Assembly: GCA_964532425.1 (NCBI GenBank)
Contig: CAZHIA010000003.1
Coordinates: forward strand, 117,365-181,364
DNA: 64,000 bases
Source of the DNA: an uncultured Candidatus Saccharibacteria bacterium
GTDB taxonomy: Bacteria; Patescibacteriota; Doudnabacteria; UBA920
Direction: 5' to 3'
The notes under the pieces were generated by a model that was not told the DNA's origin, did no database searches, and worked only from the letters and a program-made list of their open reading frames with translations. Every line of letters begins with the position of its first letter. Within the stretch, counting starts at the first letter, position 1. Below, piece after piece: positions 1 through 61,605 of this stretch. The translations under genes and the position numbers were made by a program.

Positions 1-16
1 ATGTAAGATTTTCTCT

Positions 17-2044
17 ATGGAAGAACTCGAAAGCCAAGTCGCCAAAATCCAAATCGGCAATTTCAAGACCACGACCAGCTATGTGCATATCGTGACCGAA
101 AAGGCAGTTGCCTCGGACGCGGAGCTGTATCTCGTGGTGGAATTGCCGTTATTCAATCCCGCAGCCGAGAGTTCTTGTGAAAAGATCGCTCTGGCTATTG
201 CCGGCACGCTCCGCCGCGCCTACCGCCGGAACGTCGGCCAGGCTTCGTTCGAGAGCGCCATCGCCCAAGTCAACGACGAGCTCGGCAAACTGGCTTCCAT
301 GGGCCAGACCCACTGGATTGACAAGCTCAATTGCATTATCGGAGTTAAAGACGGCACCACCTTTACCGTTGCCACGTGCGGCAAAATAGCAGCCTACATT
401 TACCGCAACGGGGAATTTACCGACATCTCCACTCCCACCCAACCCTCCCACCCGCTGAAGACTTTCGAAAACTATGCTTCGGGCAGGCTCCGCCTTGGCG
501 ATATCCTGATTCTTTCCACGACCCAGCTTTATAACCATATTTCGGTTGACCGATTCAAAAACATCCTGTCCGGTTCGGGATCGAATTTTCTGATTGCCAC
601 CCAGACAATCATCGAATTACTCAAAGAAAATGCCGGGCCGGAAGTGGCGTTCGGCACCATCCTGAACATGCAGGTCATGCCCGGCCAAACTCCGGACGGC
701 GAGATTGATCTGGAAAACTATGTGGCAGAACAGCCACGCCGGTTTAACTTGCTCTATAAAGCCTGGGGTTCGATAAAGTCCGTACTAGTTTTCGACAAAG
801 ATGCCCGCAAGCCGCAGGTGAGCTTGCCGAAAATTTCCCTGCCGAAATTCAAAAACCTTGGCGGCAGCTCCAAACGATGGGCCGGCAAGACCAGGCATGC
901 CATGAGCAGCGCCTGGAGCAGCTTAAAATCCGGTTCAGACAATCTCGGCGCAGCCAAAATTGCCTCCTATTCTCGCGAAAAGAAGATATTTCTTGCCGCC
1001 TTGGTTCTCATGCTCATTATGATCGGCGTAACTATTACGCTAGCCAGCCGCCACAAAAACTCCCAACAAACGCAAGCTACTGCATCGAGTACACTCAAAG
1101 AGATTCAAACCCTGTTGTCCAAAGCCAGCGATTCCTATTTGTACAAGGACGAACAGAACACCAGAACGTTCCTGTCCCAGGCCAAGGAAAAATTGCCCAC
1201 CAAGGACAGCATCCCCTCTTCCCAACAGGCACTCTATACGCAAATTACCGCACAGATTACTGACCTTCAGCAAAAGATAGATAGAACAAGCGAGGCCAAA
1301 GTACAGAACCTCGGCACGCTCGGTAACGCCGATTCACTTTTGAAGTTGCCCCAGTTCCTGGCTGTCCAGATTGGCAAAACCGTTGTTAGTTACAACCTGG
1401 CTAGCGGCCAAGTGCAAGACGGCGCGCTCCTGTCATCTGAAACCATCACTCGCGCGGTACCGCTCGGCGCCCAAACCGCGGTGGTTTACAACGGACAAGC
1501 GCTCATGGTGTGGGACTACCAAAAACACCAGTTTAGCGCTCCGTTCACACTCTCGGTCCCGCAGCAAAATGACAGTGTTGGCTTGGCGCTCTACCCCGTC
1601 AATAACCGGGTATACATGGTCAACAAGGCCACGCGCCAAGTAGTCAGCTACCTGGCAGGTTCGTCGTTGTCCAAGCCGGTCGTCTCGGTCGCAAACGCGC
1701 AGGACGCAAGCAACGCCATTGACCTTGCGGTCGACGGCAGCATTTATGTCCTGTCGTCCTCCGGCGTGGCCAAGTACCAATCCGGCAAGCCGGCCGATTT
1801 CCAACTGCCGTTTATGTACACGCCATTTTCCGGTAAAGGTAGGATTGCTACTGCAAAGGATTATAAGAATATTTACATTTTAGATGCCGGCAATAACCGC
1901 ATCATTATCGTGGACAAAAAAGGCACGCTGGTGCAGACCCTTGTCAGCAAGGACTTCACCAAGCTAAAAGACTTCACCGTCGATGAAGCAAATAAGACCA
2001 TGTATATTTTAAATGACAGCAGCTTGTTGAAAGTCAGTTATTAG
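17..2044 (+). CDS. PP2C/SpoIIE-like Ser/Thr phosphatase domain, one TM helix, then a C-terminal beta-propeller (NHL/YVTN-like repeats). The ORF is open to the window edge, so it may be 5'-truncated.
   Basis: PP2C-like motifs GKIAAYIYRNGEF and GDILILSTTQL; TM segment KIFLAALVLMLIMIGVTITLA; repeated YVLSSSG / NIYILDAGNNRIIIVDKKG propeller-like blades. Confidence 0.55.
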   Translation: MEELESQVAKIQIGNFKTTTSYVHIVTEKAVASDAELYLVVELPLFNPAAESSCEKIALAIAGTLRRAYRRNVGQASFESAIAQVNDELGKLASMGQTHWIDKLNCIIGVKDGTTFTVATCGKIAAYIYRNGEFTDISTPTQPSHPLKTFENYASGRLRLGDILILSTTQLYNHISVDRFKNILSGSGSNFLIATQTIIELLKENAGPEVAFGTILNMQVMPGQTPDGEIDLENYVAEQPRRFNLLYKAWGSIKSVLVFDKDARKPQVSLPKISLPKFKNLGGSSKRWAGKTRHAMSSAWSSLKSGSDNLGAAKIASYSREKKIFLAALVLMLIMIGVTITLASRHKNSQQTQATASSTLKEIQTLLSKASDSYLYKDEQNTRTFLSQAKEKLPTKDSIPSSQQALYTQITAQITDLQQKIDRTSEAKVQNLGTLGNADSLLKLPQFLAVQIGKTVVSYNLASGQVQDGALLSSETITRAVPLGAQTAVVYNGQALMVWDYQKHQFSAPFTLSVPQQNDSVGLALYPVNNRVYMVNKATRQVVSYLAGSSLSKPVVSVANAQDASNAIDLAVDGSIYVLSSSGVAKYQSGKPADFQLPFMYTPFSGKGRIATAKDYKNIYILDAGNNRIIIVDKKGTLVQTLVSKDFTKLKDFTVDEANKTMYILNDSSLLKVSY

Positions 2045-2045
2045 G

Positions 2046-2091
2046 AGTAATCTCGAATATAACGAATCAAGCACAAATATACGTATGCAGC
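2046..2091. repeat. Left inverted-repeat arm flanking the GxxExxY gene (agtaatctcgaatata...aatatacgtatgcagc).
   Basis: Reverse complement of 2501-2526 (gctgcattcgtatattcgagattact) matches agtaatctcgaatata-cgaat-gcagc here. A second nested inverted repeat (aatatacgtatgcagc) is also present. Confidence 0.7.
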
Positions 2092-2483
2092 ACTCCGGCT
2101 ATCTTCTTTACCCGGAACTGAGCTATCAGATTGTAGGAGCTGCTTTTACTGTCTTTAACAAGTGCGGTTATGGGATGCCTGAGAAATATTACCAGCACTG
2201 CTTTTCAGAAGAACTGAAAAAACTTCATATATCTCACCAGAGAGAAAAGTATGTAATGCTTAAATACGGAGATGTCCCACTGAGTAAATATTTTCTGGAC
2301 TTTATAATAGACGGCAAAATCGTCGTTGAGATAAAGGTGAGACCCCATACCGGATATATCCATATAAAACAAGTTACCGCATACTTAAAAGCAACCCAGT
2401 GCCCATTGGCTATTTTAATTTACTTTACGAGAGACGGAGTTAAATACCGAAGAATAATCAATACACCTAACAAGCTTACTTAA
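2085..2483 (+). CDS. GxxExxY family protein (PD-(D/E)XK-like fold).
   Basis: Motif YPELSYQIVGAAFTVFNKCGYGMPEKYYQHCF (G-x-x-E-x-x-Y), 132 aa. The gene is bracketed by about 22-bp inverted repeats. Confidence 0.7.
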   Translation: MQHSGYLLYPELSYQIVGAAFTVFNKCGYGMPEKYYQHCFSEELKKLHISHQREKYVMLKYGDVPLSKYFLDFIIDGKIVVEIKVRPHTGYIHIKQVTAYLKATQCPLAILIYFTRDGVKYRRIINTPNKLT

Positions 2484-2485
2484 AG

Positions 2486-2526
2486 CATTTGCATATTTGC
2501 GCTGCATTCGTATATTCGAGATTACT
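2486..2526. repeat. Right inverted-repeat arm flanking the GxxExxY gene.
   Basis: gcatttgcatatttgcgctgcattcgtatattcgagattact is the inverted partner of 2046-2091. Confidence 0.7.
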
Positions 2527-2528
2527 AT

Positions 2529-3092
2529 ATGAACGACAAAGAAATAGAGGCCAAATTTTTAGATATTGATAAGCCGGTGCTTGTAGCCAAATTGACGGCT
2601 CTTGGCGCCCAAGATTTCGGCGAGGAAACGTTCCAGGAAGCGATTTTTTATGACAAAGATCTGACCTGGAACAAGGTCGGACGGCCATTCGTGCGCATGC
2701 GCAAAAAGCACGACGAGATTATTTTAAGCTATAAAGACCACCAAGTCGTTTCCGTGGACGGCACGGTGGAATTGGAGACCAAGGTTTCCGACTGGGACCA
2801 GACTGTAAAAATTCTTGAACACATCGGCTTGGTCAAATTTCGCGTGCAGGAAAAGCGCTGCCATGAATTTCAGCTCGGCGAAGTTACCGTGGGCATCGAT
2901 ACCTGGCCAAAAGTACCGACCTATGTAGAATTAGAAGGGCCTTCCGAAGACTCGATAAAAGAGGCTGCCGATCGCTTAGGTCTGGACTGGTCCAAAGCCG
3001 TCTTCCTGGACGCTCGCAGCGTGATCAAGCAGTATTTGGGCGATGACGTGGGAAATTATAAGGTGTATACGTTCGACCGGATTGAGTTGTAA
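2529..3092 (+). CDS. CYTH-domain protein (class IV adenylyl cyclase / triphosphate tunnel metalloenzyme family).
   Basis: N-terminal EIEAKF (ExExK) motif; C-terminal VTVGIDTWPKVPTYVELEG block typical of CYTH. Confidence 0.8.
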   Translation: MNDKEIEAKFLDIDKPVLVAKLTALGAQDFGEETFQEAIFYDKDLTWNKVGRPFVRMRKKHDEIILSYKDHQVVSVDGTVELETKVSDWDQTVKILEHIGLVKFRVQEKRCHEFQLGEVTVGIDTWPKVPTYVELEGPSEDSIKEAADRLGLDWSKAVFLDARSVIKQYLGDDVGNYKVYTFDRIEL

Positions 3093-3195
3093 CACAAATT
3101 GACCCTGTACCACTCATCTGTCTTGGGTAGATTCGGATGCAGGACACAGCACGAATTACCCCGGACGCCTATCATCGGTAAAATGATAGATTGCT

Positions 3196-3221
3196 GTAGG
3201 GGCGGATACCATCCGCCCTCC
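3196..3221. repeat. REP-like palindromic unit (gtaggggcggataccatccgccctcc) immediately upstream of the RAYT gene.
   Basis: GTAGGG + inner palindrome GGCGGATACCATCCGCC. Same family as 11528-11558, 50480-50514 and others. Confidence 0.7.
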
Positions 3222-3234
3222 AGTGTTTTGAAAA

Positions 3235-3759
3235 ATGTCTAATTCTCGAAAACAAAATCGTCTTCATTGCTATGATTACTCTCAACCGGGGTTCTATTTT
3301 GTAACTGTGTGCACACAAGGTAGGATTTGCTGTTTAGGAGAGATCATAAATGGAAAAATGAATTTGAGTGAAAACGGAAAAATTGTTGAGGAGTGCTGGC
3401 TCGGCATTCCACTTCATTACGAGAATGTGAGCATTGATTCGGCGCATATTGTCATGCCCAATCACTTGCATGGAATAATCATAATAGAACCTGTAGGGGC
3501 GGTTACTAACCGCCCTAGGAACCGGGCGGATGATATCCGCCCCTACAATAACACCAATCTTTCTGCAGTGGTGGGTTCATTCAAAAAAGCAGCATCCAAG
3601 CTGATCCATGCTGAATATACAGCATTTGATTGGCAAAAGTCTTTTTATGACCACGTCATCCGCAAAGATGAATCACTCGATAAAATTCGCGAATATATTC
3701 GCAACAACCCATTAAAATGGGAATTGGACAGAAACAATCCTTCCAATATCTGGATGTAG
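3235..3759 (+). CDS. REP-associated tyrosine transposase (RAYT), IS200/IS605-like Y1 transposase.
   Basis: HuH motif HIVMPNHLHGII and Tyr motif DWQKSFYDHVIRKDE. A REP-like pair lies in frame between the two motifs. Confidence 0.8.
   Translation: MSNSRKQNRLHCYDYSQPGFYFVTVCTQGRICCLGEIINGKMNLSENGKIVEECWLGIPLHYENVSIDSAHIVMPNHLHGIIIIEPVGAVTNRPRNRADDIRPYNNTNLSAVVGSFKKAASKLIHAEYTAFDWQKSFYDHVIRKDESLDKIREYIRNNPLKWELDRNNPSNIWM
3491..3546. repeat. Two REP-like units lying in frame inside the RAYT coding sequence.
   Basis: ctgtaggggcggttactaaccgccctag and gggcggatgatatccgcccctac are translated as ...EPVGAVTNRPRNRADDIRPY... Confidence 0.7.
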
Positions 3760-3842
3760 CGCAGGCCCGTGGCCTGCTATTTTATTATTCTAAAACAAAA
3801 TTAAAAAATGGACACGCGAATCAAATTCGCGTGCCCTGTTGC

Positions 3843-4160
3843 TTACTTGGGTGCCACCGTGTAGACGATGGCCAGTTTGCCGAGCGGCCGGCTGCCGGCG
3901 CAAATGCGCTGCTTCGGCTGCTGGGGGCGCTCCGCCCAGAAAGTCCGCACGACCGTCACCTGATCGTCCATGATGGCCGAGGCGAAAAACTTTTCCTCGG
4001 TCATGTCAGGCGTCAACAAATGTTCATTCAGGTTAACTGCCACGGCTACAGCCAAATCGCGGAAACGTTCGTCGCCGTCATAGGCATTAATGACCATGAC
4101 TTTCTGGTCACCTTGCAACTGCGCGGCTTTTTCCACCAACGGGTCTACTCGTAACGACAT
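3843..4160 (-). CDS. Hypothetical protein (105 aa) co-transcribed downstream of the DHH phosphoesterase gene.
   Basis: SD AAGGAGGG 8 nt before the ATG; terminator hairpin cacgcgaat-caa-attcgcgtg plus a T-run downstream. Confidence 0.5.
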   Translation of the reverse strand: MSLRVDPLVEKAAQLQGDQKVMVINAYDGDERFRDLAVAVAVNLNEHLLTPDMTEEKFFASAIMDDQVTVVRTFWAERPQQPKQRICAGSRPLGKLAIVYTVAPK

Positions 4161-4170
4161 ACTCCCTCCT

Positions 4171-5211
4171 TTACACCGTAAACATGCTGTCTTCCATCCA
4201 AGCCTTGACCATTTCGAGAACCAGTGGCTCGGTGACCTTCTTGAGCCAGACTCCTAAGTCCAGTTCCATCATGGCCCCGCCCTCACCCCGACCATCGGGG
4301 GTTAACTTGGCGCCGGAATGCTTGGTGAAGTGCTTTTTAAGAAAATCACCCAGCGGCTCGCTGAGGTTGGACGACCGCGCGCTAATGCGCACGCGATTGC
4401 CAATAATGCCCCAGACCACGACGAGCGAGACCCCGTCCATGCGCAGGAATTCATCGGCCACTTCCGCGAGCTGGTCGCTGTCCTGTTCGCTAATGAATCC
4501 CATACCCGTCACCAGCCTGCTCCCCTGCTGCTTGCGCAGCTCAAGAGCTTTTTGGAGGTACACGAAGTACATGGGTGAGAGCTTGTAGGAAAGTAGCGGT
4601 GCCAATTCTTCGGCACTCAAGCCTTCCACGAGCTTTTGATAGGCGCTGATGTCGCGCTTGTCGCACGCAATGAGGCCTTTGGTGTCGGTGTAAATACCGA
4701 GGGCCATCACTACTTTCAGATAGCGGAATTCGAACGGGATAGTATACTGACACGCTTCGATCAGTTCGTGAACCAGCGTCGTGCCTGCACCCACCTCATC
4801 GACAAGGACGAAATTGTCACCATTTTGGGCAAATTCCCCATCGCGGTGATGGTCAATGATGATCGACGGCGGATATTCCTCAATCAGGTTGAGCCGTGCA
4901 TCGGTGAGCAGCGATGAGTCGACCAGGGCGGTGGGCACATTCTTGGCAAGAGTGACCATGGACGCTTCCCGCAGAAACCGGCCGAGGTCGTAACGATTCA
5001 CGATGGCGCGGTTCTGAGCATGGCCGATAGGTCCTCCGTAGACAATCCGGGAAGCCACATGGTTCTCCCCGCGAATTTTGTACGAATGAAAGTCCAGGCC
5101 TAAAGCCATGGCCAAAGCATCGGGATCGAGCTGTGCGAGGAAGATGGTCAACTGCCCTTGCAGTTCAGCCATAACCCGCTTGAATTTTTCCGCTTGTGCT
5201 TGCGTTACCAT
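4171..5211 (-). CDS. DHH-family phosphoesterase (NrnA-like oligoribonuclease / pAp phosphatase).
   Basis: DHH motif IIIDHHRD and DHHA1-like C-terminus (GGGH-like GEGGAMM). SD AGGAGG before the MVTQAQ start. Confidence 0.8.
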   Translation of the reverse strand: MVTQAQAEKFKRVMAELQGQLTIFLAQLDPDALAMALGLDFHSYKIRGENHVASRIVYGGPIGHAQNRAIVNRYDLGRFLREASMVTLAKNVPTALVDSSLLTDARLNLIEEYPPSIIIDHHRDGEFAQNGDNFVLVDEVGAGTTLVHELIEACQYTIPFEFRYLKVVMALGIYTDTKGLIACDKRDISAYQKLVEGLSAEELAPLLSYKLSPMYFVYLQKALELRKQQGSRLVTGMGFISEQDSDQLAEVADEFLRMDGVSLVVVWGIIGNRVRISARSSNLSEPLGDFLKKHFTKHSGAKLTPDGRGEGGAMMELDLGVWLKKVTEPLVLEMVKAWMEDSMFTV

Positions 5212-5464: not shown

Positions 5465-5689
5465 ATGCATTACACTTACCTGGAACTGCACGGACTTAAA
5501 TATGCCGAGGTTAACTCGCTCAAACTGTCAGACGACGATCTGGATATGAAGCGCCATCTCGAGCACTGCGAACTCTGCCGCGGGCGGTATGAGAATTTAA
5601 GCCATGCCGATACCGAAGAGATGAAGCGTTTTCACCAGGATTTCATGAAACCGCTGAGTTACGACTCGTCCCACAATTCAGCGCAGTAG
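5465..5689 (+). CDS. Small hypothetical protein (74 aa) with an HCELCRG motif.
   Basis: SD AAGGAG 8 nt before the ATG; followed by a terminator. Confidence 0.5.
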   Translation: MHYTYLELHGLKYAEVNSLKLSDDDLDMKRHLEHCELCRGRYENLSHADTEEMKRFHQDFMKPLSYDSSHNSAQ

Positions 5690-5700
5690 CAGCCAAACCC

Positions 5701-5735
5701 GCCACCGGATTCTCGTCCCCGGTGGCTTTTTGTAT
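5701..5735 (+). terminator. Rho-independent terminator.
   Basis: gccaccgg-attctcgtc-cccggtggc hairpin followed by TTTTTGT. Confidence 0.7.
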
Positions 5736-5973
5736 TCGCCCTGAGTCATTGCTATAAAAACAAAAACCGTCCCCACAGAGCCCCGATAACCGATACCTTC
5801 CCCCATGCTGTAATACGTGACAGCAATGCAGTGCAAAGTTCTTACTGCAGTACGGTGCAGTATTGCAGTGACTATCGTCTGCCTTAATCCCAAATCTTAA
5901 ATCATAAATCAGACCCCACCCTTTGCAACAAAGGGCGGGGTCATCCGGTCGAATGGCCGGGTCAAATGAAAAA

Positions 5974-13035: not shown

Positions 13036-13214
13036 TCTATTACCTCCCTTCGGTTGTACCGCACTCTACTACATCCGGGTTCGTTCATTCAGCAGTCCAT
13101 TTCCCGGCACCAACACTGACCATATATAATCATATATTCGAAAGTACTTGTCAACAGCCACGAAAATACCACCGTGCAGGTGGTATTATTTATGACTGAT
13201 ATTATCGAACAATA

Positions 13215-17258: not shown

Positions 17259-17333
17259 TGGGGTGTAGCCAAGCGGTAAGGCAAGCGGCTCTGAACCGCT
17301 CATTCCTAGGTTCGAATCCTAGCACCCCAGCCA
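17259..17333 (+). tRNA. tRNA-Gln (anticodon CUG), 75 nt, with an encoded CCA.
   Basis: Cloverleaf with a 7-bp acceptor stem UGGGGUG/CACCCCA and an anticodon loop CUCUGAA. It is near-identical in layout to E. coli tRNA-Gln (GCCAAGCGGUAAGGC D-arm, GGUUCGAAUCC T-arm). Confidence 0.9.
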
Positions 17334-60688: not shown

Positions 60689-60738
60689 AGAGGGATCGTC
60701 TCCCCTCACTTTTCCAAAGAGAGGGGTCGGGGGTGAGT

Positions 60739-61107
60739 TCAAGGGGTGAACTTCACCGATGCAACCTGATAAATTTTCAAATATACACCTTCGATACTGC
60801 AGTTAACTTCGTTATTCCAAAAACGTAGTATGGTAACCCCCAACGAGCCTAGATAGTTGGCCCTATTTTCATCGTGCGATCGATCTGCAGGCCGGTTATA
60901 CTGACCACCATCTATTTCAAGGCATAATTTTATTTGGGGACAATAGAAATCCAAAATATATTTCCCGATGCTGTATTGCCTAAAGAACTTAAGGTTAAGA
61001 ATATTTCTATTGCGAACAATATTCCAGATTTTTCTTTCTTCTTTAGTCGATTCTTTTCTCAATTTCCTGCGAAATTGTTTGGTTCGGAGGGTATTGTAAA
61101 GTTTCAT
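60739..61107 (-). CDS. DUF559 (Vsr-like endonuclease domain) protein.
   Basis: ERKIWNIVRNR...YILDFYCPQIKLCLEIDGGQY...GVTILRFWNNEV. Confidence 0.75.
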   Translation of the reverse strand: MKLYNTLRTKQFRRKLRKESTKEERKIWNIVRNRNILNLKFFRQYSIGKYILDFYCPQIKLCLEIDGGQYNRPADRSHDENRANYLGSLGVTILRFWNNEVNCSIEGVYLKIYQVASVKFTP

Positions 61108-61179
61108 GGATTCTCTATTAACTTTCCCCTAGCCCCTCCCTTTGAAAAAGGGAGGGGGAACTGCATACCCACCCTTTCA

Positions 61180-61605
61180 TCAACTCATCAACCCTTTCTC
61201 CAACAGCTCTTGAAAAAATGCATCAATTTCGCCTGAAGCGGACATGGCTTTTATCTCTTCCATGGTAAACCACTGCGCCTCTGTGTGGTCTTGATCAATA
61301 ACGGGTTCACCTTCAATTTCACCGACATACGTGAGCCGAACCACATGTTTGTCAGGCCGCATGATATCTTGGGCCGCAATCAGTTTCGGTACTTTGATGA
61401 GCTCAAGACTAACCTCTTCTTTAATTTCCCGTTTAAGATTTTCGATCAGTGGAAAATCCGTATCAATCCTGCCGCCAACAATGTCCCAAGCTTGCGGCAC
61501 GTCTGGGTACTTGGCAGGATTTCTCCGCACTAATAAAAATTTCCCTTCCGGATTTTTTAGAAATGCCTTGACCCCCACTTGAAGCGGAAAATTTGAAGAA
61601 TCCAT
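61180..61605 (-). CDS. Nudix-family hydrolase with a variant Nudix box.
   Basis: GGRIDTDFPLIENLKREIKEEVSL (Gx5[D]x7[K]EIxEEx[S]L). Confidence 0.6.
   Translation of the reverse strand: MDSSNFPLQVGVKAFLKNPEGKFLLVRRNPAKYPDVPQAWDIVGGRIDTDFPLIENLKREIKEEVSLELIKVPKLIAAQDIMRPDKHVVRLTYVGEIEGEPVIDQDHTEAQWFTMEEIKAMSASGEIDAFFQELLEKGLMS

What the first reader, a model, noticed from the sequence alone, without database searches (positions are those of the whole stretch)
2046..2526. GxxExxY-family gene bracketed by about 22-bp inverted repeats between two unrelated genes
Seen in the sequence: agtaatctcgaatata(a)cgaat...aatatacgtatgcagc upstream and its reverse complement gctgcattcgtatattcgagattact downstream enclose a 399-bp ORF with the GxxExxY signature. 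The stop of the upstream gene overlaps the left arm, and the CYTH gene starts 3 bp after the right arm. Established knowledge: GxxExxY proteins (PD-(D/E)XK-like) are often found as self-contained insertions, for example inside 23S rRNA intervening sequences. Inference: this is a compact mobile or selfish cassette inserted into an intergenic spacer.
Basis: partly seen in the sequence, partly recalled or inferred. Interest (0 to 1): 0.5.

Follow-up and report, generated by a model that had tools for sequence, protein, structure and literature searches.

The report
Repeat-armed nuclease cassette wedged between genes
A 481-base self-contained insert, a small nuclease gene held between two mirror-image repeat arms, sits exactly where two host genes abut in related bacteria, and it belongs to a widespread, apparently undescribed class of such inserts that resembles the long-puzzling intervening sequences of ribosomal RNA genes.

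Summary
The arms are about 42 nt each (2046-2088 and 2485-2526; outer 16 nt perfect) and enclose an intact GxxExxY / PD-(D/E)XK gene (2085-2483).

There the 675-aa gene and the CYTH gene abut as TAATG or TAA-CC-ATG. So the 484 bases between the two genes in the window are an insertion.

The architecture is family-wide. In 51 of 65 non-redundant metagenomic loci a GxxExxY gene is bracketed by comparable arms. It is always co-oriented with its neighbours and sits between their stop and start codons, in at least 39 different contexts.

Each arm is modular: a terminal AGTAATC followed by four C-N-AAT boxes. Arm pairs without a gene and a cargo-carrying version also exist.

Genes of the 23S-rRNA-IVS protein family (PF05635) and a DUF559 gene elsewhere in this window show the same layout.

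My reading is an old, vertically persisting, IVS-like selfish cassette. Its arms probably pair in the operon transcript, and its Cas4-like nuclease probably recognises the arm boxes. How it moves is not shown. I found no published description of this arrangement.

The parts
2046..2088 (+). Left arm of the cassette. It has the terminal heptamer AGTAATC (2046-2052) and four direct C-N-AAT boxes: CGAAT 2054-2058, CGAAT 2063-2067, CAAAT 2074-2078, and a degenerate CGTAT 2082-2086. The inner end overlaps the cassette's ATG.
   Evidence: Aligned with 41 other arms to the consensus AGTAATC[G/A]C-N-AATATAC-N-AAT / 7-10 nt spacer / N-AATATAC-N-AAT. nhmmer with the arm model gives E 8e-5.
2085..2483 (+). 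GxxExxY gene, 132 aa: a minimal PD-(D/E)XK nuclease. It has the G30-x-x-E33-x-x-Y36 motif, the catalytic D72, E82 and K84, and Q96/Y100.
2485..2526 (-). Right arm, the reverse complement of the left arm. On the + strand its boxes read ATTTG 2487-2491, ATTTG 2495-2499, ATTCG 2506-2510, ATTCG 2514-2518, then GATTACT 2520-2526. It starts 1 nt after the cassette's stop codon and ends 2 nt before the CYTH ATG.
   Evidence: nhmmer E 1.9e-8. It contains a promoter-like TTTGCA-17-TATATT at 2488-2516, but such hits are no more frequent here than in shuffled sequence.
2042..2531 (+). The interrupted gene junction: stop TAG 2042-2044 of the upstream gene, 484 inserted bases (2045-2528), and ATG 2529-2531 of the CYTH gene.
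   Evidence: Empty sites in relatives: L085 2062-2066 TAATG and L094 TAA-CC-ATG.
17..2044 (+). Upstream host gene (675 aa, no Pfam hit), co-oriented with the cassette. It is conserved in Patescibacteria at up to about 55% identity.
2529..3092 (+). Downstream host gene (187 aa, CYTH domain), co-oriented with the cassette.

Best explanation
Window 2046-2526 is an inserted, self-contained selfish cassette. It belongs to a large family found mainly in CPR/Patescibacteria. The layout is a 42-nt arm, a GxxExxY (Cas4-like PD-(D/E)XK) nuclease gene, and the inverted arm.

Shown:
- It occupies what is a 0-2 nt stop/start junction of the same two genes in relatives.
- It is AT-richer than its host.
- Its nuclease active site is intact.
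- The same architecture recurs in dozens of unrelated junctions. It is always co-oriented with both neighbours and abuts their stop and start codons.
- The arms are arrays of four C-N-AAT boxes behind a conserved AGTAATC end.
- Versions without the gene, with duplicated arms, and with cargo genes exist.
- At shared sites the cassette has diverged about as much as its flanking genes, so it persists for long periods with the ORF and arms conserved.

Inferred:
1. The cassette has no promoter or terminator of its own and is transcribed as part of the host operon.
2. In that transcript the arms pair and loop the ORF out. This places the upstream stop codon and the downstream start codon a few nucleotides apart at the base of a helix of about 22 bp or more. 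The helix could be cut by RNase III, as in rRNA intervening sequences. Alternatively its outer turns could be melted by ribosomes terminating on the upstream gene, unmasking the CYTH start. Either way the insertion stays harmless to a formerly coupled gene pair. I put this step at about 0.45-0.5.
3. The nuclease is the element's own gene. It most likely recognises the repeated arm boxes, to copy the cassette into cassette-free alleles or arm-only sites or to prevent its loss. I put this step at about 0.3-0.4.

I put the general statement, an old inserted IVS-like selfish cassette, at about 0.85.
For: - Insertion: empty sites in L085 and L094.
- Inverted repeat far above chance, and the top score of 261 window ORFs.
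- Family-wide architecture: 51 of 65 non-redundant GxxExxY loci score at least 26, against 9 of 178 control ORFs. Eight of those nine are themselves repeat-bracketed cassettes.
- At least 39 distinct flank contexts.
- Co-orientation: the upstream flank codes on the same strand only in 36 loci and on the opposite strand only in 0. Downstream the counts are 39 and 1.
- Neighbour stop and start codons mostly lie within about 12 nt of the arm ends.
- ORF G+C is below that of the flanks in 63 of 63 loci, on average by 10 points.
- Modular arm consensus.
- Arms of one element are more alike than arms of different elements: 52.6% against 40.3% identity at variable columns, permutation p < 0.0005.
- Arm pairs without an ORF at L016 1438-1566 and L014 2318-2378; duplicated arms; cargo unit in L008.
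- Co-divergence with flanks at shared sites.
- The predicted RNA fold closes the whole cassette through the arms: -128.9 kcal/mol, z -4.8, in both the minimum-energy and centroid structures.
- PF05635 (rRNA-IVS protein) genes have the same layout, with arms of tandem 7-8-mers.
- The Coxiella 23S IVS has tandem GACAGAT heptamers at its 5' end just upstream of the S23p ORF, with the RNase III cut at the first repeat, and RNase III excises the IVS (PMC4990558). GxxExxY loci L059 and L063 use ACAGAT boxes.
- Fold closest to Cas4, with D-E-K intact.
Against: - No experiment or transcript data bear on pairing, RNase III cleavage or translational coupling.
- Mismatches between arms are mostly transversions (157 of 269). 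The degenerate N of box 1 shows no within-element matching. So base pairing is not the constraint at those positions, and the bias towards G:U-compatible changes is weak (70 against 42, p 0.01, confounded by arm asymmetry).
- The tight abutment to stop and start codons would also follow simply from insertion into a near-zero spacer.
- No target-site duplication was seen, and there is no second copy in the window.
- Almost no viral copies and no close homologue (best 64%). Recent mobility is therefore not demonstrated.
- PF05635 cassettes have the same layout without encoding a nuclease. This weakens the idea that the encoded protein drives mobility.
Confidence: 0.6

Rival explanations
1. It is a DNA transposon in the classical sense. 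The arms are terminal inverted repeats with subterminal binding boxes (an IR/DR-like layout). The GxxExxY nuclease is the enzyme that excises or copies the element. Any RNA pairing is incidental.
For: - The end sequence AGTAATC plus four repeated boxes per arm is conserved across proteins that are only 45-60% identical.
- Internal direct repetition of the boxes is not needed for a simple stem. The degenerate N positions do not co-vary between arms.
- Arm pairs without an ORF resemble MITEs, duplicated arms occur, and one arm pair brackets three genes.
- There are at least 39 contexts.
Against: - No target-site duplication.
- No known transposase chemistry: a 125-aa PD-(D/E)XK nuclease alone cannot join DNA.
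- Orientation relative to neighbours is 36:0 and 39:1 rather than random.
- Co-divergence with flanks points to very rare movement.
- There is one copy in the 64-kb window.
- PF05635 cassettes share the layout but encode no nuclease.
Confidence: 0.25
2. It is a homing-type element. The palindromic arm pair, left arm joined directly to right arm as in L016, is a pre-existing intergenic hairpin element. The nuclease gene inserts into the centre of that hairpin. The arms are then target-derived rather than part of the moving unit.
For: - Arm pairs without an ORF sit at the same kind of stop/start junction.
- Nucleases with this fold commonly act as dimers or tetramers on symmetric sites (my own knowledge, not tested here).
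- Empty alleles exist in relatives.
Against: - The empty sites of this very locus (TAATG, TAA-CC-ATG) carry no arm sequence at all. Arms and gene therefore arrived together here, or the arms arrived first and left no trace in relatives.
- The arms co-vary with the cassette subgroup.
Confidence: 0.1
3. It is an ordinary host gene, for instance a defence or repair nuclease, with a palindromic operator or an invertible switch. It is not an insertion.
For: - ORF and arms are conserved over long vertical descent.
- The active site is intact.
Against: - Empty sites in two relatives.
- At least 39 unrelated contexts.
- G+C is lower than the host in 63 of 63 loci.
- No PADLOC hit.
- Orientation never flips, which argues against an invertible switch.
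- No T-run follows the arms, so they are not a terminator.
Confidence: 0.03

Closest known systems
Intervening sequences (IVS) of bacterial 23S rRNA genes that carry an S23p / 23S_rRNA_IVP (PF05635) ORF, for example in Coxiella burnetii and Leptospira
   Same: - An ORF of about 120-130 aa is enclosed by inverted repeats that form a long stem.
- In Coxiella, tandem GACAGAT heptamers lie at the IVS 5' end next to the RNase III cut site (PMC4990558). These compare with the C-N-AAT and ACAGAT boxes here.
- G+C is lower than in the host.
- Distribution is sporadic, and the elements have long been suspected to be of mobile origin.
- PF05635 genes in these same CPR contigs have exactly the cassette layout seen here.
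   Different: - It sits between two protein-coding genes, not in an rRNA helix.
- The ORF is PF13366, a nuclease, and not PF05635, a four-helix bundle.
- RNase III excision is demonstrated for the rRNA IVS but untested here.
- No GxxExxY gene in my sample lies in rRNA.
REPIN-RAYT systems (REP-associated tyrosine transposases flanked by inverted REP sequences)
   Same: - A single small gene is bracketed by inverted copies of a short repeat.
- Inheritance is vertical over long periods.
- Palindromic repeat doublets without a gene occur in intergenic DNA (from my own knowledge of the REPIN-RAYT literature).
   Different: - The enzyme here is a PD-(D/E)XK nuclease, not an HUH Y1 transposase.
- Each arm is an array of direct pentamer boxes, not a hairpin.
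- Gene-less copies are rare: none in this window and a handful in 435 kb.
Free-standing homing endonuclease genes (for example the seg and mob genes of T-even phages; PD-(D/E)XK homing enzyme I-Ssp6803I)
   Same: - A small nuclease gene is wedged between conserved co-oriented genes.
- Related genomes show the uninterrupted junction.
- The catalytic site is intact.
   Different: - From my own knowledge, such genes are not described with conserved 40-nt inverted arms.
- Here there are at least 39 unrelated insertion contexts rather than one cognate target.
- Divergence tracks the host.
[quoted passage not shown]
   Same: - Inverted ends have a conserved tip and repeated internal boxes.
- Gene-less derivatives exist.
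- One pair of arms brackets cargo genes (L008).
   Different: - No DDE, HUH, serine or tyrosine transposase is present.
- No target-site duplication is seen.
- Co-orientation with host genes is strict.
- Copy number is low.
Cas4 / RecB-like nucleases
   Same: - Conserved E in helix 1, the D...ExK core, and a Q-x-x-x-Y pattern (Q96...Y100 read from the alignment; calling it a RecB/Cas4-type motif is my own knowledge).
   Different: - Only about 125 aa.
- No Fe-S cluster cysteines and no CRISPR context.

Membership tests
GxxExxY protein (TIGR04256) / PDDEXK_3 (PF13366) | Profile score above the curated cut-off | tested here: met
   TIGR04256 99.9 bits (cut-off 35). PF13366 96.6 bits (cut-off 22)..
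GxxExxY protein (TIGR04256) / PDDEXK_3 (PF13366) | GxxExxY motif and PD-(D/E)XK catalytic residues | tested here: met
   [not shown]
Inserted or mobile genetic element (general criteria) | Empty site in related genomes | tested here: met
   L085 TAATG and L094 TAA-CC-ATG between orthologues of the same two genes.
Inserted or mobile genetic element (general criteria) | Same element type in many unrelated genomic contexts | tested here: met
   72 loci fall into 39 flank contexts.
Inserted or mobile genetic element (general criteria) | Several copies, or recent copies, in one genome | tested here: not met
   Only one cassette and no solo arm in the 64-kb window. The nearest homologue anywhere is 64% identical. 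The rest of the source genome was not available.
TIR transposon / insertion sequence | Terminal inverted repeats | tested here: met
   Arms of 42-43 nt, conserved end AGTAATC.
TIR transposon / insertion sequence | Target-site duplication | tested here: not met
   No direct repeat flanks the arms in the window (gg | at) or in the other loci that I inspected by eye.
TIR transposon / insertion sequence | A recognised transposase (DDE, HUH, serine or tyrosine) | tested here: not met
   The only ORF is a 132-aa PD-(D/E)XK nuclease.
rRNA intervening sequence (IVS) | Located within a helix of an rRNA gene | tested here: not met
   It is flanked by protein-coding genes. The only Rfam hit in the window is a tRNA at 17259-17330. 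There are no Rfam hits in 20 ambiguous loci.
rRNA intervening sequence (IVS) | The ends form a long stem that encloses the element | tested here: met
   In silico only. The minimum-energy and centroid folds both close the cassette through the arms, z -4.8.
rRNA intervening sequence (IVS) | Excision from the transcript by RNase III | not testable with these tools
   Needs transcript-end mapping or an in vitro cleavage assay.
Homing endonuclease gene | The nuclease cuts the cassette-free allele | not testable with these tools
   A biochemical assay is required.
Homing endonuclease gene | Cassette phylogeny incongruent with host phylogeny at shared sites | tested here: inconclusive
   GxxExxY identity is roughly equal to flank identity at shared sites. 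For example, L006/L007/L015 give 60-68% against 62-73%. A few pairs have a more conserved cassette (L053/L050: 78% against 43% and 61%).
REPIN-RAYT | HUH Y1 (RAYT) transposase flanked by REP hairpins | tested here: not met
   The protein is PD-(D/E)XK and the arms are not hairpins. A separate RAYT-like gene lies at 3235-3759.

The most novel reading that the evidence does not exclude
GxxExxY (PF13366), 23S_rRNA_IVP/Avd-like (PF05635) and possibly DUF559 genes may be payloads of one general class of repeat-armed mini-cassettes. On this reading the cassettes colonise stop/start junctions of operons, and rRNA helices as well. They stay phenotypically silent because their arms, built of tandem 5-8-nt boxes, pair in the host transcript. 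The pairing either leads to excision or preserves translational coupling. The classical rRNA intervening sequences would then be the rRNA-resident subset of this class. The oligomeric payload proteins would recognise the repeated boxes.
Probability: 0.35. Interest if true: 0.8.

Novelty: new variant of a known kind. Interest (0 to 1): 0.62.

Why it matters
GxxExxY proteins form thousands of sequence clusters (4196 representatives at E <= 1e-3). Yet they have no known function and almost no literature.

This work shows that in CPR bacteria they come as precisely built cassettes. The cassettes have conserved, modular inverted arms and strict co-orientation, and they sit exactly at gene junctions. 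That gives the family a concrete, testable biology.

The same layout holds for the protein family that names the rRNA intervening sequences. The origin and function of those sequences 'remain unclear' about 25 years after their discovery (PMC4990558).

If the arms act in the transcript, this would be a way for selfish genes to live inside the tightly packed operons of minimal genomes without breaking them. It would also give a route to explaining where rRNA IVSs come from.

For annotation, the arm model finds cassette boundaries, gene-less remnants and cargo units.

Tried and rejected
- The genome-contig scan with the 675-aa protein gave one relative at 50% identity. Its downstream gene is a convergent Dus gene, so it was uninformative for the empty-site test. 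The empty sites came instead from the protein search plus contig look-ups.
- I considered that the window's gene A C-terminus (SY*, against the common LP*) was insertion damage. I rejected this because ...TY...SY and ...NF endings occur in other orthologues.
- The 14/16 match to the arm at 13133-13148 is not recovered by the arm model. I treat it as chance in AT-rich promoter-like DNA.
- Target-site duplications: none seen.
- Wobble bias as a test of RNA pairing gave only a weak signal, confounded by left/right arm asymmetry.
- A promoter in the right arm scores 9 of 12, but such hits are no more common here than in shuffles.
- Terminator reading: no T-run follows the arms.
- Invertible switch: the orientation never differs.
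- No homologue of solved structure was found by sequence.
- There is no PADLOC hit and only a marginal PHROG hit.
- Essentially absent from viral contigs.
- No Rfam family is found in the cassette or in the sampled loci.
- The two 453-aa ORFs next to arms in L008 and L016 are unrelated.

Full report
**What is in the window.**
Reading 1-4200 and the ORF list gives this order, all on the + strand:
- a 675-aa gene (17-2044, stop TAG 2042-2044);
- one base;
- a 481-base unit (2046-2526);
- two bases;
- a 187-aa CYTH-domain gene (ATG 2529).

The unit holds one ORF, 2085-2483 (132 aa). It is a clear member of TIGR04256 GxxExxY (E 1.1e-28) and PF13366 PDDEXK_3 (E 1.6e-27).

The inverted repeat is real. 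The outer 16 nt are perfect (2046-2061 against 2511-2526). A colinear alignment extends the arms to 2046-2088 and 2485-2526. By my count from the alignment that is 36 of 42 matches plus one bulged A. The left arm therefore runs into the cassette's own ATG, and the right arm begins one base after its stop.

The inverted-repeat score is 48 against 15.1 +/- 1.7 for shuffled flanks. Among all 261 ORFs of 70-400 aa in the window it ranks first (mean 15.1, sd 3.3). The unit is 37.6% G+C in a 50.5% window, and its flanks are 52.0% and 48.6%. No second GxxExxY gene and no further arm copy exist in the 64 kb.

**Is it an insertion?**
The exact proteins occur only on contigs of the same organism. The one relative in the species-representative genome set has no conserved downstream synteny.

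A protein search with the 675-aa gene found orthologues at up to 55% identity in Patescibacteria. Their contigs gave the decisive result:
- In L085 the orthologue is followed at once by the CYTH orthologue (46% identity). The two genes overlap as TAATG.
- In L094 they are separated by two bases, TAA-CC-ATG.
- Other relatives lack CYTH altogether.

The window thus has 484 extra bases at a junction that is 0-2 nt long elsewhere. I checked whether the window's C-terminus (SY*) shows insertion damage. It does not, because that ending occurs in other orthologues.

**The architecture is a property of the family.**
The nearest GxxExxY homologues are only about 62-64% identical. I therefore fetched 80 metagenomic loci with an alignment of 48 homologues and scored each for an inverted repeat bracketing the ORF.
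- Fifty-five of 71 loci with complete flanks score far above shuffles and above a direct-repeat control. That is 51 of 65 non-redundant loci.
- Of 178 control ORFs of 100-200 aa in the same DNA, only 9 reach the threshold. Eight of those nine are themselves small repeat-bracketed cassettes.

The arms are 35-43 nt and modular. In the largest subgroup (42 arms) the consensus is AGTAATC[G/A]C-N-AATATAC-N-AAT, then a 7-10 nt AT-rich spacer, then N-AATATAC-N-AAT. That is a conserved tip followed by four direct C-N-AAT boxes in two 12-nt units about two helical turns apart.

The window's arms fit this model:
- Left-arm boxes: 2054-2058, 2063-2067, 2074-2078, and a degenerate box at 2082-2086.
- Right-arm mirror boxes: 2487-2491, 2495-2499, 2506-2510, 2514-2518.

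Other subgroups keep the plan with other tips and boxes (TAC-N-AAT, CAC-N-AAT, ACAGAT), matched between the two arms of each element.

**Where the cassettes sit.**
- The 72 loci fall into 39 different flank contexts.
- Nearly everywhere the upstream neighbour is on the same strand and stops within a few bases of the left arm's outer end. The downstream neighbour is on the same strand and starts within a few bases of the right arm's outer end.
- By a frame-openness test, the upstream flank codes on the same strand only in 36 loci and on the opposite strand only in 0. Downstream the counts are 39 and 1.
- No target-site duplication is visible.
- The ORF is AT-richer than its flanks in 63 of 63 loci, 30.7% against 40.7% on average.

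**Age and variants.**
Where several loci share both flanks, GxxExxY identity is about the same as flank identity. For L006/L007/L015 it is 60-68% against 62-73%, and for L029/L030 it is 81% against 74-82%. A left-arm/right-arm difference (GTAGTC against GTAATC) is inherited across three such loci. The cassettes therefore persist for long times with ORF, catalytic residues and arms intact. The two arms do not homogenise.

An nhmmer model of the arms run over 435 kb also found:
- arm pairs with no gene between them, again exactly between a stop and an ATG (L016 1438-1566, L014 2318-2378);
- duplicated arms (L010/L011, L037);
- a solo arm after rplL in L087;
- one unit, L008, in which a left arm, GxxExxY, two further ORFs and a right arm span 2.3 kb.

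The subfamily is nearly absent from 2.9 million viral contigs.

Among five non-CPR plasmid examples:
- A Bacteroidota one (Bernardetia) has inverted arms made of ACAGAGA repeats (score 36, z 8.9).
- A Fusobacteria one has 22-nt direct repeats instead.
- A Gemmatimonadota one has tandem CGCGGAT repeats downstream.

**The link to rRNA intervening sequences.**
The control outliers are six PF05635 (23S_rRNA_IVP, Avd-like four-helix bundle) genes, one more PF13366 gene and, in this window, a DUF559 gene. The PF05635 genes have the same layout: neighbour's stop, arm, ORF of about 120 aa, inverted arm, neighbour's ATG. Their arms are made of tandem 7-8-mers (GTAGnnn, ACTAGnn, TCTAAAn, ATTAGTTn). For L088 the relative L087 lacks the cassette.

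PF05635 is the family encoded in classical 23S rRNA IVSs. The Coxiella IVS is a 428-nt element excised by RNase III. Its 5' end carries tandem GACAGAT heptamers just upstream of the S23p ORF, with the RNase III cut at the first repeat, and its G+C is below that of the host (PMC4990558). Boxes of the ACAGAT type also occur in GxxExxY cassettes L059 and L063.

A survey of CPR rRNA insertions reports LAGLIDADG, GIY-YIG and 23S_rRNA_IVP ORFs. A search of its one held supplementary file found no PDDEXK_3 (PMC11270868). None of my GxxExxY loci is in rRNA.

**The protein.**

**How it most likely works.**
Shown: it is an old insertion of a family with conserved modular ends, strictly co-oriented and junction-bound.

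Inferred:
- It is transcribed with the host operon. There is no room and no significant signal for its own promoter or terminator.
- As RNA, the arms are predicted to pair and close the whole cassette (-128.9 kcal/mol, z -4.8; both minimum-energy and centroid structures). The outer helix is 16 bp, a bulge, then 5 bp, and the CYTH start lies at its base.
- The helix could be cut by RNase III as in rRNA IVSs. Alternatively, ribosomes terminating at 2042-2044 could melt the outer turns and unmask the CYTH start. Either would mimic the ancestral TAATG coupling.

Against pairing as the only constraint:
- 157 of 269 arm mismatches are transversions.
- The degenerate box position shows no within-element matching.
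- The G:U-compatible excess is weak.
- The boxes are repeated within each arm, which a stem does not require.

These points favour the boxes being recognition sites for an oligomeric protein. The encoded nuclease is the obvious candidate. That in turn supports a DNA-level role for the arms, as ends for copying or homing. The two roles are not exclusive.

I give about 0.85 to 'inserted IVS-like selfish cassette'. I give about 0.45-0.5 to a functional transcript-level stem, and about 0.3-0.4 to nuclease-arm recognition driving spread or retention.

**Novelty.**
Full-text searches for GxxExxY, PDDEXK_3, PF13366/TIGR04256, PF05635 and related terms found no description of this architecture. The idea that IVSs are relics of mobile elements is old (cited in PMC4990558). 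Finding the same design at operon junctions with a nuclease payload is, as far as I can tell, new. I class it as a new variant of a known kind.

Noticed in passing
window 60702-61157 (- strand): This is a second repeat-bracketed nuclease cassette in the window. It is a 122-aa DUF559 (PF04480, E 7e-33; Vsr-like PD-(D/E)XK by my own knowledge) ORF at 60739-61107. It is flanked by inverted copies of a hairpin-type repeat, CCCCTCCCTTTTTCAAAGGGAGGGG (61133-57) and 60702-26. It is co-oriented between the stop of the gene at 61180-61605 and an ATG about 13 nt after the arm. Its inverted-repeat score is the second highest of 261 ORFs.
   Followed up: partly
window 3194-3778: A RAYT-like (REP-associated tyrosine transposase) ORF lies at 3235-3759. 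It scores below the NCBIfam cut-off (47.6 against 80 bits). A REP-like hairpin GGGGCGGAT..ATCCGCCC lies just upstream (3199-3219). An inverted doublet of the same motif lies inside the ORF (3491-3517 and 3524-3546), as if a REPIN had been inserted into the gene.
   Followed up: no
L088 1270-1741; also L096 60-416: A PF05635 (23S_rRNA_IVP) gene lies between lexA and a 63-aa gene. It is bracketed by 31-nt inverted arms made of GTAG heptamers. The right arm ends 2 nt before the next ATG. The relative L087 has only 139 nt at that place.
   Followed up: partly
L012 935-1421; L068 1233-1705; L070 4738-5160; L039 1716-2139; L042 1541-1984: Five more PF05635 genes lie on the GxxExxY contigs. Each is bracketed by inverted arms of tandem 7-8-nt boxes (TCTAAAn, CGTAGnn, ACTAGnn, ATTAGTTn).
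   Followed up: partly
L008 194-2527: One arm pair brackets three genes: GxxExxY (239-625), a 150-aa ORF containing an R-x4-H (HEPN-like) pattern seen by eye, and a 453-aa repeat protein. Neither of the last two has a Pfam or PADLOC hit.
   Followed up: partly
L016 1438-1566; L014 2318-2378; L087 5892-5930: These are arm sequences without a GxxExxY gene. L016 has left + right + right arms forming an ~80-nt palindrome (left + first right arm, 1438-1520) exactly between a stop and an ATG. L014 has a shorter version. L087 has a solo arm right after the rplL stop.
   Followed up: partly
L090 1451-1901; L091 about 1440-1920; L093 downstream of 1881: Non-CPR GxxExxY genes on plasmids vary. Bernardetia has inverted arms of ACAGAGA repeats. 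The Fusobacteria example is flanked by a 22-nt direct repeat AGATTTAATCCGTGTACCTAT instead. Gemmatirosa has three tandem CGCGGAT-containing 9-mers downstream.
   Followed up: partly
L087 about 5680-5830: A long inverted repeat, GTGTCATTCCGAGCGA ... TCGCTCGGAATGACAC, encloses about 120 nt in the spacer after the 676-aa gene. It looks like a different MITE-like element.
   Followed up: no
window 13133-13148 (- strand): A 14/16 match to the arm tip (AGTACTTTCGAATATA) lies in a promoter-like spacer next to TTGACA. The arm model does not recover it, so it is probably chance.
   Followed up: partly
proteins P0215, P0242, P0252, P0255 and others: Some GxxExxY representatives are about 250-390 aa long with two matched stretches, suggesting tandem duplicated or fused copies. 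Others are fused to longer proteins, or are read-through gene calls.
   Followed up: no
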